A stretch of DNA of 64,000 nt, taken from NCBI RefSeq assembly GCF_054482525.1, contig NZ_CM137006.1; one strand, 5' to 3'. Of this stretch, positions 24,801 through 30,800 are shown piece by piece. A program made the position numbers. The first letter of the stretch is position 1. Every line of letters begins with the position of its first letter.

Positions 24801-27800
24801 TCCAGAACGGGCAGGCAAAATAGAAGTGCTATCCGGCAGCTTCTTAATGAATCCAGTTCAAAGCCCTGTAAAGGAACAAGCCGCTTTTGCTGTAAAAAAC
24901 GTTCGGCAAGAGTGACTAATTTGCTTTGTTCCTGTTCCGTCAGACACGTTAAAAGGGGGATCGATAGTGCTTCCTGCCAGGGAAGGGCAGTTTGATGTGC
25001 TGATTCTTGTACTTTCCAGGGCCACTTAATCATCGTTTTGCTCGCAAACTCGTCACTTGAACAAAATTGCACGGACAGGGACTGTTAAAATGCCAAATTT
25101 CCTGGCATCATGGCAACCATCTGAACGGAGAGATGCCGGAGCGGCTGAACGGACCGGTCTCGAAAACCGGAGTGGGGGCAACTCCACCGGGGGTTCAAAT
25201 CCCCCTCTCTCCGCCAAAATTCAATCACTTACACATCATTAAGTCAGTGACAAAAATCACACTTGGAATTACTTGGAATATTTTCTTGGAATATTTTCAG
25301 GTAACGGGACATCAAGTGTTGGTGAAACTTTAACCTTCCTGTCATAGATTAGCACTTGCCCTTCGGTTTTGTGACCAGAGAAAAGTTGCTTATCCCGGCT
25401 GCTTCCTTCATAGTCTGAAATTCCTTTCGCCTTCAGATCATGAAAGGTGAAGTCGGTTAAAATACCTGAAATTTTTCCAGCACGATTTCTTGCATCTACC
25501 CACATTTCGTTAAAGCCTTTGTACATATATCGGTTGCCGTATTGATTGCTGATCACATAGGCAGATTTTGGCAACTGTTTTGCTTTTTCGATCGCTGCCT
25601 GTAATCGTGGACTCCATGCTTTTATCTGTTTTTTTCCGGTTTTCCCTTGCTGGATGAATATCCCGTCGTTTCCAATCTGTTCCCATTTCAGCGATAACAC
25701 ATCGGAAACCCTCGCTGCACACAGATAGGCAATTTCCATTGCGATAAAAACAGGAAGAGGTGCAACGCTTAATACTGCCTGGTATTCTTTGTCGGTTACA
25801 TATCGTTCGCGGTTTTTGGCCTTGAATTTACTTACACCTGCACATGGGTTAGCCTTCACGTACCCTCGCTCATACCCCCAACTGTAAACACGGGACATAC
25901 TGCTTTTTTCATGGTTGGCTTGCGTTTTACTCTGCTCCCCTCTTTTGTCCATGTATCGACGGATGTGTTCTGGTTTTATGGAATCCGCTGGTACCTTACC
26001 GAATACGGCAAGCAACTTTTTTTGATGTTGCAGATAATCTTTTTGTGTTCTTGGACTAAGGTCACTGTAATAGGCGCTGGCGAGGAATTTTTCCCACAAG
26101 CGACCGAATGTCATTGCACGATCGCGATTATTTACAGTTTCCTCATACTTTTTCCATAAAGCAGCTAAACCATCCTTGATGGCGGTTAGTGTGACAGATT
26201 CTCTGGATGTTGGTTTCCATACATAACTATATTTATTTGGGTATACATTTGGAGGTAATTTTTCGTGTTCAGGATTTTTCCTTCGTCTTCCCATCAGATC
26301 GCACCAAAATTCGGCTCTACCTCGCGTGGTGGTAAAGTTTTATTGCAGGTAAATAGATCCCGGCTGACAATCGGTTTGCCACTACGATTGGTATAGAACG
26401 GAAGCCCGTTTTCCATTAACCATTTTCGCTGGTGGCTTGCATATTTGCAGCCCGTTAATATTAGCAATTCATCTTCGGTTAAAAATAAGCTGCTCATAGC
26501 TATATCTCATAACCGCCGCTAACTATATACGGTTAGCGGCAATTAGGGTTGAACATTAAAAATCAGCCTGACTCGGGATCAGTTTTTGCCAGATAGCTGA
26601 AACGTATTTTGCCTGGTAACGAGCGTCATCAAGTGCATTATGGCGCTCACCTTCGAATGGAATAGCCGTTCTGGCATCGAAGTCTATGGCTTTCCCCAGC
26701 TCAACGATTGTGCGTACATCGCGATCGTTGTAGTAACGCCACGGGCAGGGGATCCCCTGCCGTTCGTATGAACGGCGCAAAATCGTGTTGTCGAAGTTGG
26801 CTCCATTTCCCCAGACCTGAACAAAAAATTCACCGGAGTTTTCGTCGATAAATTCCCGCAATTGTAACAGTGCATCATCTAACGGGATTTCATCGGTCAT
26901 AATGGCAGATTGCGCTTCGCGTGATTGCTTAAGCCACCATTTAATGGTGTCCCGATCAATGACTCCGCCAGCAGTTTCCAGATCGATAGTCTTACTAAAT
27001 TCCGGTCCCATATCTCCGGTTTGCGGATCGAAAAATATTGCACCTATTGAGATGATCGGGGCATCAGGATTTTTTCCCATGGTTTCAAGGTCGATCATTA
27101 GATGGTCACACGTCCTGCTGGTGGATGTGATTTCGTGATGACCGTTCACCTTAATTGGGTGATCTGCCGTCTCGCCAGTTTCATTATCGCTATTGTGATG
27201 CTGATTGCCGCCAGTGTTCTCCTTGTGTGGATGTTCAGCGCCTTCCATTTCCTCCGGATCATCTTCCTGAACTTCAACCTGATACTCTTCATCGAATGTT
27301 TCTTGGTATGTTGCGTCGCCCATCACCGCGCCACAATCAGGGCAGTTGCCGCCGCCGGTCTGACCGCAGGCGGTGCAGACTTTTTCCACTTCCTGTTGCG
27401 CCACTGGTTCAGGCTGTTTCGTTTCTGGCTCGTTTTGTAACGCATTTGTGCTGTTTTGTTCCGCTTTTTGGTAGTTCCGTTCCGATTCATGCTGGTTCTG
27501 GTTCACAGAATCGCGGGTCTGGATCCCCTTAACCCATTTCGGATCATTCGGGTCACTAATCCCTTCAACAAATTCACCACGTGATGCAGCAAGCAACTTA
27601 TCGGCGTCAGGCTGGCTGATATTGGCTGCCTGCATAATTTTGTTTACTTCGTCAGCGGTAACTTTTATCGGCTCTGGTTGTTCTGAATCTTCAGCGGTAT
27701 CTACATTTTGCGGTAAGCCCGTGTATGTGCCATTTTTTCGGGCAAAATATTCTTCTTTTGTGATTTCAGTGGCGCCAGCAGCCAGTGCCTTATCCAGACC

Positions 27801-30800
27801 AGAAAGTTTGTTTGCGCGACCGTATTTTTCTCCGTCCTTATCTGCGAAGAGGAAATAGAACGGCCCCTCACGCTCTACAGATGGTTCAGCTTCCGGCGCG
27901 GTTTCATTTTTTGGGATATCAGATACCTCAGTTTCCACTGCATCAGTTTGTGTTTCTGATGACTGGAGAACATCAACAGTGCCCTGGTCTGTTTCTTCAT
28001 TCTCAAACACGCCCTTTGTCGTCAGGTATTCGCAGATATATTTGTTCAGTGCTACGGGATCTTTGTGAATGTCGATCGGACGCTCACGGACAAGGCCAAA
28101 AATAGTTTGGCGGTCGTAGCGAAGGGCATCAGGCTGTTTGCGCATTGATGCCGAGATACGCTTCCAGTCTTCGCGGTCGTTGTCGATAACTTCTTTTTTT
28201 GCCCAGCGATGGATGCTGCCGTCAATGTTTCCGGCATCCACATCACCAGGCCAGAGAGCGTAGGCCAGTTCGTCATCCAGTGTTTTCCATGTCTGCTTGT
28301 ATTCGCGATGAATGGCAGCAATGACCGGGCTGATTTTTCCTGTTGAATTTTCAGTGTACTGTTGATTGGCTCTGGCGCGGGCGAGATCAACAACAGACGT
28401 GTATTTTCCGGTTTCCTTGCGTTCACCTTCGCGACGTTTTTTCCAGATGCGCATCTCTGCCTGAATTTCGGGCCATTTAGCACCAGGAATACATTTATGC
28501 TTAACCCACCCAATGGCGTGCAACTTAAGCTCCGGATACATGGCGTTAACTTCTGGCATTTTCATCAACGCTTCAACGATATGTCCGTCGAATGTTGCCA
28601 TGTCTTCCTGCAACAATTCCTGTGCGCTAATAACCATATCAACGGTGATGTTTTCACATGTGTCGAACTTAACCATGACAGCGTTCTGTACTTCAGGGGC
28701 CAGCTTGTCAAAAGTGACGTTCATCGGATCGGATTCAGTCTCAACCGGGACAAAAGAAGCAGACTCCTCATCCCAGCGGTTTTCCTGCATATATTCAGCA
28801 TCCCATGAATCGAGGGCAGGGCGGGGTATGCCAGGTTTATCCTCGCAGACAATAAATTTATAAGCGCAGTCCTGAGCAGCCGGATAATGTTCCAGGAACT
28901 GCCAGTGAAATTTTGCTCGAGCACGGCGTTCGTCGCCAGCTTCAATGGCTGTGGCTACAGCCACAGTGCCTTCTTCCCTTGTTGCCAGTTCGTCAGGAAT
29001 AGCGGCGCAAATAAAGACTTTACTCATTTTGTTTTAACCTCATGACAGATTTAAGGATGAACAAATCCCTGCCATTGCTGGCATATAAGAATGAAACCGG
29101 ATATTTATTACGGAACTGTTTTAAAGACCTGCCGGGATTTCGTTATTATCCTGGTGAATAACTTTATCGACCGGATAACAGTTGCCTGGAATTTTCTGTT
29201 CGGTTGCTGCTGCCATACATTCCTGCATTGTTCTGTGAACACTGACTGCAATATCAACTGGCTCTCCGGAAACAAGAAAAACCGTCAGAATAAGTGCAAA
29301 TACTGGATTCATTGTGCACATCCTTTTGGCATCAAACGTAAACGGGCCAGCATTGAAACAATGCATACTTTATTTAATAACTCCCGTTCGTGTTTTCTTT
29401 TGTTAATGGCATCTTCAGTAAATACAGGATTACTGATAGTGACACCAATTTCAAAACAACCTTCAGACGTATTAACGTTTGGTAATAACGTTTTCATTAT
29501 CGCGCCCTCAACAATGAGTTTTGTGATGCGGTGCCTGGTGCCTCCAGGTGACGTTAACCAGTTAACAATTAACGCCGGATACAGAGAATCCACCCATAAC
29601 ACTGTTTTTGGTTTTAACTGTTCCGCGTGCGCTTAGCCGCATTCACCGCATCACAAAATTCACTTTAAAAAGGGCGGCAGAGCAGTCACGGAGTAAAACT
29701 GATACCGCCAAACGTCACCAGAAAATTGATAACAGAGGGCGTTGCAGCGGGGTTGTCACTTAAGCGTATGGTCAACCTGACAACCCGGTGTCCTCAACGG
29801 GGAAGGAATAACCCCGCCATACTTACCGCCGCGCCATTTCGCGTAGTGCCACAACCGGAAGCGCACGGTCGACGAAAATTTAACGACAGGCTATCTATGA
29901 ACCAGCTACCTCGCCGTGCGCTTTCGCGTTATGGTCTGACTTTTCATGGAAATATCCTTTCAGTAAACTGTCAGTGCCGGATGCTCACCCGTGTCCGGCG
30001 CACGCACTCCACCTCACCCGTGGAGAACGCCTTAATTACCAACCTTAGCTTCGTTGGTTAGCTATTAACGCTGGTATGTAATCATTCTGGCAATGCTTAA
30101 TGCCGCTGCTTTTTCCAGCCTGGTGATATCCTGCTCCAGAGCGGACAGATTTTCAGCCTGCTTAGCCCTGGCTTCATTGGCCCATTTCAGATCCTGCGCT
30201 GCATTAATTTTCTGGCGCATCCACTCATAAAGTTCATCATCGGTATAGTCTGGCGCGATGATGACGGGTTCTCGTTTCTGCATACTGATTCCTCGCGGTG
30301 CTGCTTCGCTTATCAGCCGTTAGATTTTGCCGAGCTGGAAAGCGCCTGTTTAAACTCACTGAAGCTGAGAGCTTCTTCGCCTTCGGTAAGGCCTTCGAAG
30401 TATTCTTCGTAAGCCTTTTTCATGATTGTGTCGAAATCCATATCACTCACCTGAGTTTCTTTCCAGCCAGCGACGGGCACCATTTTCGGTTTTAAACGTT
30501 TTGCTTTTGGTATACGTCATCGCGGTGAATGTGCCGTCCTGGTTGGGAAACACGCCGTACACCAGAGATTCGTTGTTGCCAAGATCGATAGTATCCATGT
30601 TGACCTCATTTCCCCTTAACGCCGGGGTAGCGGAACAAAAACCTGCTGCATAGTTATTAAAGTTGAACCCTGCCGTCATGTTCTTACGCCTCGGGCTGGC
30701 TACTTAACCCCTGACCACTGCCTGGTAACTCGAAGTATTGCCCGGCGTTCTATGGGGCGGGGTGGGTTGGTATGCAATAAATCTAAAAGTATTTAGTTTT

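What the first reader, a model, noticed from the sequence alone, without database searches (positions are those of the whole stretch)
26556..29027. Large composite exonuclease-family gene in place of a standard recombination module
Where lambdoid phages carry exo/bet or recE/recT, this prophage has one 823-aa gene with an unassigned N-terminal half, a Cys4 zinc ribbon and a C-terminal DEDDh-type 3'-5' exonuclease domain. No single-strand annealing partner (Bet/RecT-like) is evident nearby. Position and size suggest a role in recombination or anti-defence rather than core replication.
Basis: partly seen in the sequence, partly recalled or inferred. Interest (0 to 1): 0.35.

Follow-up and report, generated by a model that had tools for sequence, protein, structure and literature searches.

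The report
RecE-like prophage protein, swapped nuclease head
This is the intact form of the common E. coli prophage gene ydfE: it has the non-catalytic body of the recombination exonuclease RecE, but RecE's 5'-3' nuclease is replaced by a DexA-type 3'-5' exonuclease and there is no annealing-protein partner. The gene is real, conserved and already catalogued, but nobody has tested what it does.

Summary
Window 26556-29027 (- strand) encodes an 823-aa protein with a Cys4 motif (C551/C554/C562/C565) and a C-terminal DEDDh exonuclease domain (Pfam PF16473, 1.5e-67) whose five catalytic residues are all present. No annealing protein is encoded nearby.

The N-terminal part is not an orphan. Residues 262-627 align to Rac RecE 278-592, and residues 11-204 match the RecE N-terminus by profile comparison (97%). 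Homology stops where RecE's PD-(D/E)XK nuclease begins. The protein is therefore a RecE-family scaffold with a swapped nuclease head.

It is the full-length version of K-12 ydfE, which IS2 truncates. It is the last gene of the ydfABC-dicF-dicB-ydfD early-left operon, next to xis and int. It matches 4799 of 5426 complete E. coli genomes, and its folded domains are under purifying selection (dN/dS 0.06-0.16).

In other prophages the same scaffold carries a RecE nuclease (followed by RecT), a Rad52-family annealase (followed by Gp157), or this DEDDh head (followed only by xis/int).

The most likely role is 3'-5' DNA-end processing in phage recombination, in a Chi-rich prophage that lacks its own recombination module. 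Defence or anti-defence roles are not excluded. Interest is moderate to low: the family is catalogued but functionally untested.

The parts
26556..29027 (-). Full gene: 823-aa RecE-scaffold plus DEDDh exonuclease, the intact ydfE (PGAP name 'exonuclease').
   Evidence: ORF. An identical CDS is annotated in RefSeq. It matches PHROG 2082 over its full length. The K-12-type locus carries the same gene truncated by IS2 after 767 nt.
28743..29027 (-). N1 domain (aa 1-95): small alpha/beta domain, the YdfE_N part.
28413..28742 (-). N2 domain (aa 96-205): helical bundle.
   Evidence: AF2 pLDDT is about 97. dN/dS is 0.12. hhalign to the RecE-type N-terminus gives 94.7% probability, E 5.8e-8.
28008..28295 (-). 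M domain (aa 245-340): helical, the YdfE_C part, shared with RecE residues 278-350.
   Evidence: BLASTP against RecE. AF2 pLDDT is about 97. dN/dS is 0.11. The NCBIfam RecE model matches from aa 246.
27723..27875 (-). Mini-domain (aa 385-435) with the motif ERxGPFY...GRANK...EI[TS]xEE[YH]xARKxG.
   Evidence: AF2 pLDDT is 89-96, with a beta-beta-alpha-beta-alpha arrangement. dN/dS is 0.06. The domain is conserved in 16 diverse relatives.
27534..27596 (-). Conserved linear motif LLAASRGEFVEGISDPNDPKW (aa 478-498) inside an otherwise disordered stretch.
   Evidence: It is aligned in 17 diverse relatives, including Rac RecE. It occurs with PDDEXK, DEDDh and Rad52-like heads. Its function is unknown. 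A docking-site role is inference.
27333..27377 (-). Cys4 motif C551-x2-C554-x7-C562-x2-C565, a putative zinc ribbon.
   Evidence: Read directly from the sequence. It is nearly identical in Rac RecE residues 517-531. dN/dS is 0.15. AF2 confidence here is only about 65-69. Metal binding was not tested.
27108..27323 (-). Acidic, disordered linker (aa 569-640). RecE homology ends here, at about aa 627.
   Evidence: Composition: 14 acidic and 0 basic residues in aa 561-600. AF2 pLDDT is below 50. dN/dS is 0.68. The BLASTP alignment ends at residue 627, which corresponds to RecE residue 592.
26589..27104 (-). DEDDh 3'-5' exonuclease domain (aa 642-813) of the DexA/Rv2179c family, with catalytic residues D646, E648, D746, H796 and D801.
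   Evidence: Pfam PF16473 at 1.5e-67. PDB 8kel (T4 DexA) at 1.6e-6. The catalytic columns are invariant. The domain is 56-60% identical to the stand-alone exonucleases of phages epsilon34 and mEp460. dN/dS is 0.16.
26294..26497 (-). Excisionase-like gene (DUF4224), immediately downstream.
   Evidence: Pfam PF13986 at 1.9e-15.
25269..26294 (-). Tyrosine integrase at the prophage end, next to tRNA-Ser(cga) at 25127-25216.
   Evidence: Pfam Phage_integrase. tRNA.
29121..29497 (-). ydfD (DUF1482, 29121-29312) and dicB (29309-29497), immediately upstream in the same operon.
   Evidence: Pfam DUF1482 at 8e-25 and DicB at 2e-39. RefSeq annotation of an identical arrangement.
29672..29723 (-). DicF small RNA.
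   Evidence: Rfam RF00039 at 76.7 bits against a gathering score of 48.
30065..30598 (-). ydfC, ydfB and ydfA, the first genes of the early-left operon.
   Evidence: ORFs. Pfam DUF1391 for ydfA. RefSeq names.
30780..30808 (-). Sigma-70-like promoter (TTGACT-17-TAGATT), a candidate pL for the operon. No comparable promoter lies directly upstream of the exonuclease gene.
   Evidence: Consensus scan only. The number of sites found was not above the number expected from shuffles.
30875..31522 (-). cI/LexA-type repressor (HTH plus S24 peptidase).
   Evidence: Pfam HTH_3 and Peptidase_S24.

Best explanation
The gene encodes a RecE-family protein whose catalytic head has been exchanged.

Shown:
- About 630 N-terminal residues form the same multi-part scaffold as the non-nuclease region of Rac RecE: three folded domains, a mini-domain, a conserved GISDPxDPKW motif, a Cys4 ribbon and an acidic linker.
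- The C-terminus is a DexA/Rv2179c-type DEDDh domain with a complete active site. RecE has a PD-(D/E)XK 5'-3' nuclease there instead.
- It is the last gene of the repressor-controlled early-left operon (ydfABC-dicF-dicB-ydfD-exo-xis-int).
- All folded parts are under purifying selection.

Inferred:
- After prophage induction the protein is made together with DicB.
- The scaffold takes it to the same DNA-end or host-factor context that RecE uses.
- The head removes nucleotides from 3' ends, for example trimming 3' tails or flaps, or resecting the 3'-ended strand of linear phage DNA.
- Because there is no phage annealase, it probably works with host recombination functions. The prophage is Chi-rich and has no recombination module of its own, which is the pattern reported for RecBCD-dependent lambdoid phages.

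The substrate (DNA or RNA) and the benefit to the phage were not determined here.
For: Domain identity: Pfam PF16473 at 1.5e-67; T4 DexA is the only PDB relative; the five catalytic residues are invariant.

RecE scaffold: BLASTP 4e-63 over residues 262-627 against RecE 278-592, about 80% identical around the motif and ribbon. The NCBIfam RecE model matches residues 246-623. hhalign of the N1+N2 profile against the RecE-type N-terminus gives 97% probability, E 7e-11, after removing shared sequences.

Head swapping on one scaffold: among 56 representative relatives of 550 aa or more, 19 carry a Rad52-like head, 15 PDDEXK, 10 DEDDh and 5 another type. The Rad52 assignment rests on 40% identity (E 1e-49) to stand-alone proteins that pass Pfam Rad52_Rad22.

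Partner pattern: a PDDEXK-headed relative is followed by a RecT-family gene, as RecE is. Rad52-headed relatives are followed by a coupled Sipho_Gp157 gene. DEDDh-headed relatives are followed by xis/int or int only.

A 56%-identical stand-alone DEDDh gene sits inside a true recombination module in phage epsilon34, in the order Rad52-like annealase, SSB, exonuclease, Abc2 (PMC12315714).

Selection: dN/dS is 0.06-0.16 in domains and about 0.67 in linkers.

Operon position.

Chi: 19 sites in the window against 2.2 +/- 1.5 expected. Twelve lie on the + strand within the prophage. This fits the 'no Rec module, many Chi' class described in PMC12315714.
Against: - No activity, substrate or phenotype is known for this protein or any close relative.
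- 3'-5' exonucleases usually reduce homologous recombination in E. coli, as PMC12315714 itself notes.
- That paper excludes sporadic DnaQ-type nuclease genes near int from recombination modules.
- The PF16473 family includes an RNA exonuclease (Rv2179c), so DNA specificity is assumed, not shown.
- The function of the RecE N-terminal region is itself unknown (PMC11611040), so 'same targeting as RecE' explains little.
- AF2 modelled the DEDDh domain poorly in the full-length run because the alignment was shallow there.
Confidence: 0.45

Rival explanations
1. It is a prophage-encoded defence or superinfection-exclusion nuclease. The DEDDh head would degrade the nucleic acid of incoming phages, either modified DNA (as reported for the DexA homologue EcD, 'HREX') or RNA-phage 3' ends (as reported for TONDO exonucleases). 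The N-terminal region would act as an auxiliary or targeting domain.
For: An E. coli DexA homologue (EcD) was reported to digest 5hmC DNA and protect against T4 (PMC12153337). Prophage- and plasmid-borne DEDDh exonucleases with unrelated auxiliary domains were reported to defend against MS2 and Qbeta (PMC13344964). The gene lies at the int-proximal end of the prophage. It is very widespread in E. coli.
Against: - EcD is a different protein. Its primers give an N-terminus MIDTET and a C-terminus TIPETY, and the primer sequence is absent from the window.
- The DexA residues reported to recognise 5hmC, W152 and D169, align with Y766 and A780 here. The tetramer residue D90 is retained as D718.
- PADLOC gave no hit.
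- No promoter-like site lies directly upstream, and the gene is the distal member of the repressed early-left operon.
- The scaffold family is otherwise tied to recombination heads.
Confidence: 0.2
2. It is an anti-defence enzyme made early after induction. It would destroy a host immune nucleic acid that has a free 3' end, such as retron msDNA, cDNA made by defence reverse transcriptases, or oligonucleotide signals.
For: The early-operon position implies expression at the onset of lytic growth. The domain is a 3'-5' exonuclease. There is no direct evidence.
Against: No homologue is reported as an anti-defence factor in the papers searched. The association of the scaffold with RecE nuclease and Rad52 annealase heads points to DNA recombination.
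Confidence: 0.1
3. It is a nucleotide-scavenging or host-DNA-degrading exonuclease, as classically proposed for T4 DexA. It would convert DNA fragments to mononucleotides during lytic growth.
For: It belongs to the same family as DexA. The RefSeq note for T4 dexA describes host DNA degradation, as does PMC12153337.
Against: Temperate lambdoid phages are not known to degrade host DNA wholesale (own knowledge). A 630-residue RecE-type scaffold is unnecessary for bulk scavenging. The stand-alone domain exists in other phages.
Confidence: 0.07
4. It is an RNA 3'-5' exonuclease acting on phage or host transcripts, for example maturation or turnover of the dicF/dicB operon RNA.
For: The name-giving member of PF16473, Rv2179c, is described as an exoribonuclease in the Pfam description. 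Some RefSeq copies are named '3'-5' exoribonuclease domain-containing protein'. DicF is encoded 650 bp upstream.
Against: The closest characterised relative by sequence is the DNA exonuclease DexA. The same scaffold carries DNA-recombination heads in paralogues. K-12 produces DicF although its ydfE is truncated (plus own knowledge of DicF in K-12).
Confidence: 0.06
5. It is a non-functional evolutionary leftover: a recE gene damaged by mosaic recombination and carried passively in cryptic prophages.
For: Many copies are truncated, by IS2 in K-12 and as partial matches elsewhere. Lambdoid mosaicism is evident: 85.7% nucleotide identity to recE over only nt 1420-1867.
Against: Every folded domain, including the DEDDh head, is under strong purifying selection, while the linkers are relaxed. 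The catalytic residues are intact. A full-length copy is present in 3536 genomes and in a sequenced phage (HannyBb).
Confidence: 0.03

Closest known systems
RecE (exodeoxyribonuclease VIII) of the E. coli Rac prophage, with RecT
   Same: The non-catalytic region is homologous over about 600 residues: 40% identity over residues 262-627 (about 80% around the GISDPNDPKW motif, Cys4 ribbon and acidic linker), plus profile-level similarity over residues 11-204. The position in the early-left operon is the same, downstream of a cell-division inhibitor and upstream of xis-int.
   Different: RecE's C-terminal PD-(D/E)XK 5'-3' nuclease (residues 605-866, PDB 3h4r) is absent and a DEDDh domain takes its place. 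No recT follows. The score is far below the NCBIfam equivalog cut-off (283 against 1269 bits). The predicted polarity is the opposite.
T4 DexA (exonuclease A) and the Rv2179c-like family (Pfam PF16473)
   Same: The C-terminal 180 residues belong to this family, with all five catalytic residues.
   Different: DexA is a stand-alone 227-aa protein. Here the domain is the head of an 823-aa scaffold protein. DexA's extra loops are missing. DexA W152 and D169 correspond to Y766 and A780.
Stand-alone DnaQ/DEDDh exonucleases of lambdoid phages (epsilon34 gp34, mEp460 gp26)
   Same: They are 56-60% identical to the C-terminal domain. The mEp460 gene also lies directly upstream of xis.
   Different: They have no RecE-type scaffold. 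In epsilon34 the gene is embedded in a recombination module, in the order Rad52-like annealase, SSB, exonuclease, Abc2. Here there is no annealase, SSB or anti-RecBCD gene.
YdfE of E. coli K-12 (Qin prophage; Pfam YdfE_N and YdfE_C)
   Same: It is the same gene in the same operon (dicA/dicC, ydfABC, dicF, dicB, ydfD, ydfE). The first 767 nt are 99.7% identical.
   Different: The K-12 copy is cut by IS2 and lacks everything after about residue 255, including the nuclease. The window copy is complete.
'RecE-2' proteins and sporadic DnaQ-type nuclease genes near int (Genome Res 2025, PMC12315714)
   Same: [quoted passage not shown] It also describes Chi-rich lambdoid phages without recombination modules.
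   Different: The text available here does not describe the fusion of the RecE-type scaffold to a DEDDh head, or to a Rad52-type annealase. I could not check whether 'RecE-2' equals the Rad52-headed relatives found here, because the supplementary tables are not held.

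Membership tests
RecE / exodeoxyribonuclease VIII (NCBIfam NF007259 equivalog) | C-terminal PD-(D/E)XK nuclease domain (RecE residues 605-866, PDB 3h4r; Pfam PF12684). | tested here: not met
   The PDB search finds 3h4r for RecE but not for this protein. There is no PF12684 hit. The BLASTP alignment ends at RecE residue 592.
RecE / exodeoxyribonuclease VIII (NCBIfam NF007259 equivalog) | Whole-protein score above the curated equivalog cut-off. | tested here: not met
   283.3 bits against a cut-off of 1269. Only model positions 271-600 of 877 are matched.
RecE / exodeoxyribonuclease VIII (NCBIfam NF007259 equivalog) | N-terminal non-catalytic region homologous to RecE residues 1-592. 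| tested here: met
   BLASTP 4e-63 over residues 262-627. hhalign 97% probability, E 7e-11, over residues 11-203 against RecE 9-220 with shared sequences removed.
RecE / exodeoxyribonuclease VIII (NCBIfam NF007259 equivalog) | Adjacent recT (annealase partner) downstream. | tested here: not met
   The next genes are xis and int. tblastn with two RecT proteins found nothing in the window or in 80 related loci.
RecE / exodeoxyribonuclease VIII (NCBIfam NF007259 equivalog) | 5'-3' double-strand DNA exonuclease activity. | not testable with these tools
   This needs enzymology. The domain family present predicts the opposite polarity.
DexA / Rv2179c-like DEDDh 3'-5' exonucleases (Pfam PF16473) | Match to the family model above the gathering score. 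| tested here: met
   227.1 bits against a cut-off of 27. Residues 642-813 cover model positions 2-177 of 177.
DexA / Rv2179c-like DEDDh 3'-5' exonucleases (Pfam PF16473) | Complete DEDDh catalytic set (DexA D7, E9, D119, H186, D191). | tested here: met
   D646, E648, D746, H796 and D801 are present, and these columns are invariant in all 8 aligned sequences.
DexA / Rv2179c-like DEDDh 3'-5' exonucleases (Pfam PF16473) | 3'-5' exonuclease activity. | not testable with these tools
   This needs purified protein and end-labelled substrates.
HREX-type defence exonuclease (EcD; PMC12153337) | Residues reported to recognise 5hmC (DexA W152 and D169) are conserved. | tested here: not met
   They align with Y766 and A780. 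This depends on the alignment, because the region is loop-rich.
HREX-type defence exonuclease (EcD; PMC12153337) | Loss of the tetramer-forming Asp (DexA D90, which is Ala in EcD). | tested here: not met
   The aligned residue is D718.
HREX-type defence exonuclease (EcD; PMC12153337) | Protection of cells against T4-like phages. | not testable with these tools
   This needs phage challenge assays.
Two-component phage recombinase (exonuclease plus single-strand annealing protein) | An annealase gene (RecT, Redbeta, Erf, Rad52, Sak or Sak4) in the same module. | tested here: not met
   Searches find none in the window. DEDDh-headed relatives in four other contexts also lack one.
YdfE (Pfam YdfE_N PF27430 plus YdfE_C PF27432; Qin/dicB prophage operon) | Matches to YdfE_N and YdfE_C, and synteny with ydfABC-dicF-dicB-ydfD. 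| tested here: met
   Precomputed Pfam for 96-99% identical proteins lists PF27430, PF27432 and PF16473. These models are not in the local Pfam copy, so they were not scanned directly. Synteny is shown.

The most novel reading that the evidence does not exclude
The RecE/YdfE N-terminal region is an autonomous platform that accepts interchangeable heads. In different prophages it presents a 5'-3' nuclease, a 3'-5' nuclease or a Rad52-type annealase to one common target, possibly through the conserved GISDPxDPKW motif docking on a host replication or recombination protein. On this reading the DEDDh version defines an annealase-independent, 3'-5' end-processing route used by Chi-rich lambdoid phages that rely on host RecBCD and RecA. 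Working out what the scaffold binds would also explain the long-unexplained requirement for full-length RecE in linear-linear recombination.
Probability: 0.25. Interest if true: 0.55.

Novelty: new variant of a known kind. Interest (0 to 1): 0.33.

Why it matters
The gene is present in most E. coli genomes, yet neither it nor the RecE N-terminal region it shares has an assigned function. Full-length RecE is needed for efficient linear-linear recombination, which is the basis of direct-cloning methods, and nobody knows why.

Three observations give a concrete handle on that question. The same scaffold is kept under purifying selection. It carries three different recombination-type heads. It contains a short conserved motif in a disordered stretch. 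Together these suggest finding the scaffold's binding partner as the next step.

The result also corrects a common annotation habit. These proteins are often labelled 'exodeoxyribonuclease VIII', although they lack RecE's nuclease and should have the opposite polarity. As a discovery it is modest, because the family is already in Pfam, PHROGs and RefSeq.

Tried and rejected
- The full-length model against PDB also gave nothing, partly because the DEDDh part was poorly modelled.
- The afdb50 library was unavailable.
- PADLOC gave no hit.
- The search for related loci with the diverse N-terminal alignment failed for lack of a conserved stretch. With the M-domain alignment it returned only 96-100% identical loci. 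These were useful for counting partners but not for diversity.
- My first RecE literature search was useless because 'RecE' matched 'receptor'.
- Testing the third head type against a single epsilon34 Rad52-like sequence by hhalign was not significant (0.1% probability), and a profile search of PDB found nothing. The Rad52 assignment therefore rests on the chain through stand-alone Pseudomonas proteins that pass Pfam Rad52_Rad22.
- I considered that the published defence nuclease EcD might be this protein. I rejected this from its primer-derived termini.
- I considered that the gene is a decaying remnant. I rejected this from the dN/dS pattern.

Full report
**Observation.** The window holds an 823-codon ORF on the minus strand at 26556-29027. 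RefSeq annotates a CDS of identical length and 100% identity as 'exonuclease'. The protein has a CxxC-x7-CxxC motif at C551/C554/C562/C565. Its C-terminal domain matches Pfam PF16473 (Rv2179c-like DEDDh 3'-5' exonuclease) over residues 642-813 at 227 bits against a cut-off of 27. The only PDB relative by sequence is T4 DexA, entry 8kel. In an alignment with DexA, two stand-alone phage homologues and four fused relatives, the five catalytic residues are invariant. DexA D7, E9, D119, H186 and D191 correspond to D646, E648, D746, H796 and D801 here.

**Context.** The gene lies in a lambdoid prophage integrated at tRNA-Ser(cga), at 25127-25216, next to mtfA. Reading the minus strand from the cI-type repressor (30875-31522), the order is:
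- ydfA, ydfB, ydfC
- the DicF RNA (Rfam 76.7 bits, 29672-29723)
- dicB and ydfD
- this gene
- a DUF4224 excisionase-like gene
- the integrase

This is the Qin-type dicB operon. In K-12-type genomes the same gene is annotated as an incomplete 'exonuclease' cut by IS2 after 767 nt, which is ydfE. A promoter-like site lies upstream of ydfA and none lies directly before the exonuclease gene. This comes from a consensus scan only. The gene is extremely common. It matches 4799 of 5426 complete E. coli genomes, 3536 of them over 80% or more of its length. Escherichia phage HannyBb carries a copy that is 99.5% identical.

**No annealing partner.** No ORF large enough lies between the gene and the repressor. 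Pfam scans of the neighbouring and early-right ORFs give DicB, DUF1482, DUF1391, YdaT, DUF977, QueH, DUF968, RusA and Q, with no RecT, Bet, Erf or Rad52. A close annotated relative has none. tblastn with two RecT proteins finds nothing in the window or in 80 related IMG/VR loci.

**The N-terminal part is a RecE-type scaffold.**
- The NCBIfam RecE equivalog matches residues 246-623 at 283 bits, far below its 1269-bit cut-off.
- BLASTP against Rac RecE aligns residues 262-627 with RecE 278-592 (E 4e-63). Identity is about 80% across the segment with the motif LLAASRGEFVxGISDPNDPKW, the Cys4 ribbon and the acidic linker.
- The alignment stops where RecE's crystallised PD-(D/E)XK nuclease begins, at residues 605-866 of entry 3h4r.
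- For residues 1-205, a profile built only from YdfE-type sequences aligns to a RecE-type N-terminal profile with 97% probability (E 7e-11). N1 alone gives 90.6% and N2 alone gives 94.7%.
- Newer Pfam releases call these regions YdfE_N and YdfE_C. PF06630 'Exonuc_VIII' covers the RecE-type N-terminus, not the nuclease.

**Predicted structure.** AF2 gives a confident model of residues 1-350 (pLDDT 90.5). It has a small alpha/beta domain (1-95), a helical domain (about 105-205) and a second helical domain (245-340). The full-length run adds a confident mini-domain (388-432) and disordered linkers. No informative structural neighbours were found. A 2023 review states that the RecE N-terminal region has unknown function, although full-length RecE improves linear-linear recombination (PMC11611040).

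**Selection.** Among 67 distinct alleles, dN/dS by region is:

| Region | dN/dS |
|---|---|
| N1 | 0.07 |
| N2 | 0.12 |
| M | 0.11 |
| Mini-domain | 0.06 |
| Cys4 ribbon | 0.15 |
| DEDDh | 0.16 |
| Long linkers | 0.66-0.68 |

All folded modules are therefore maintained.

**Family survey.** An exhaustive search with residues 1-345 finds only 168 clusters among 1.84 billion representatives. Among the 56 members of 550 aa or more, the C-terminal 'head' varies: 15 have the RecE PD-(D/E)XK nuclease, 10 have the DEDDh domain, 5 have an unknown P0126-type domain, 7 are unassigned, and 19 have a third domain.

That third domain is a Rad52-family annealase. P0139 residues 525-748 are 40% identical (E 1e-49) to stand-alone 243-aa Pseudomonas proteins. 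RefSeq names those proteins Rad52/Rad22 family, and they pass the Pfam Rad52_Rad22 cut-off.

Both N-terminal types (YdfE-type and RecE-type) occur with both nuclease heads. The GISDPxDPKW motif occurs with every head type. The Cys4 ribbon is shared only with E. coli RecE.

**Partner genes track the head.**
- A YdfE-type protein with a PDDEXK head is followed by an overlapping RecT-family gene (Pfam 2e-36), as RecE is followed by RecT.
- Rad52-headed proteins are followed by an overlapping Sipho_Gp157 gene.
- DEDDh-headed proteins in four other contexts are followed by xis/int or int only. The P0126-type protein is likewise followed by an unassigned small ORF and int.

**Literature.** A 2025 survey of lambdoid recombination modules (PMC12315714) reports four relevant points. 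DnaQ-like 3'-5' nuclease genes occur inside recombination modules, as in epsilon34. Sporadic DnaQ-type genes near int are not counted as module members. 'RecE-2' proteins lack a recognisable nuclease. Lambdoid phages without a recombination module carry many Chi sites and benefit from RecBCD.

I confirmed the epsilon34 arrangement: Rad52-like annealase, SSB, PF16473 exonuclease (56% identical to this head), Abc2. In mEp460 a 60%-identical stand-alone exonuclease sits directly upstream of xis. The window has 19 Chi octamers against 2.2 +/- 1.5 expected. Twelve are on the + strand inside the prophage. This is the orientation that a RecBCD entering from the lysis-gene end of packaged DNA would recognise. 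That last step is my inference from the gene order.

Two papers report defence roles for related exonucleases. EcD is a DexA homologue active on 5hmC DNA (PMC12153337). 'TONDO' DEDDh proteins with auxiliary domains act against RNA phages (PMC13344964). EcD is not this protein. The DexA residues reported to read 5hmC align with Y766 and A780 here. PADLOC has no match.

**Interpretation.** Identity is secure. This is a RecE-family scaffold protein with a DexA-type 3'-5' exonuclease head, the intact ydfE.

Function is inferred. The scaffold is repeatedly coupled to recombination enzymes, and a close stand-alone head sits in a true recombination module. I therefore think the most likely role is 3'-end processing of DNA during phage recombination or replication after induction, acting with host functions (confidence about 0.45). 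Defence (0.2), anti-defence (0.1), scavenging (0.07), RNA processing (0.06) and decay (0.03) remain as rivals.

**Novelty and score.** What is modestly new is the reading of it as one of several head-swapped versions of the RecE scaffold, including Rad52-annealase fusions. I found no description of this in the papers searched. I score interest at 0.33.

Noticed in passing
P0139, P0129, P0185, P0134 and others (alignment A5); L098:5001-7927, L100:5001-7717: Relatives that look 'headless' carry a C-terminal Rad52-family annealase domain fused to the RecE/YdfE scaffold. Each is followed by a translationally coupled Sipho_Gp157 gene. These may be the 'RecE-2' proteins of PMC12315714, which that paper says lack a nuclease domain.
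   Followed up: partly
window 26428-54419: Chi (GCTGGTGG) is strongly enriched: 19 sites in the window against 2.2 expected. Twelve sites lie on the + strand within the prophage and 5 on the - strand. This fits the published class of lambdoid phages with no recombination module and many Chi sites.
   Followed up: partly
window 27534-27596 (aa 478-498): A short motif, LAAxRGE[FY]VxGISDPxDPKW, is conserved inside a disordered region across distant relatives with all head types, including Rac RecE. It looks like a docking motif, but the partner is unknown.
   Followed up: partly
window 34030-34716 (+) and 38523-38832 (+): The prophage carries a QueH (epoxyqueuosine reductase) gene. It also has a cluster of four tRNA genes (Met/Ile-type CAT, Lys, Thr, Gly) just upstream of the lysis genes. 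This may be a tRNA and tRNA-modification package.
   Followed up: no
window 34784-34958 (+): A sok antisense RNA (Rfam 110 bits) is present. Related genomes annotate hokD at the corresponding position, so the prophage early-right region appears to carry a hok/sok type I toxin-antitoxin.
   Followed up: no
window 1701-1828 (-), 3261-3349 (-), about 8000-10000: EFASI RNA and a C4 antisense RNA lie upstream of the prophage, and G+C dips to 0.36 at 8-10 kb. This suggests a second mobile element or island in the first 14 kb of the window.
   Followed up: no
window 15135-23822 (-): A 2895-aa ORF encodes a protein with many near-identical Ig-like repeats (annotated 'Ig-like domain-containing protein' in a related genome). 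It is an intimin/invasin-type adhesin gene next to tRNA-Asn and mtfA.
   Followed up: no
P0126 and four related clusters; L012:5001-7109: A fourth head type (about 250 aa, PHROG 26058, no Pfam or PDB match) is attached to the same scaffold. It is followed by an unassigned small ORF and int. Its function is unknown.
   Followed up: no
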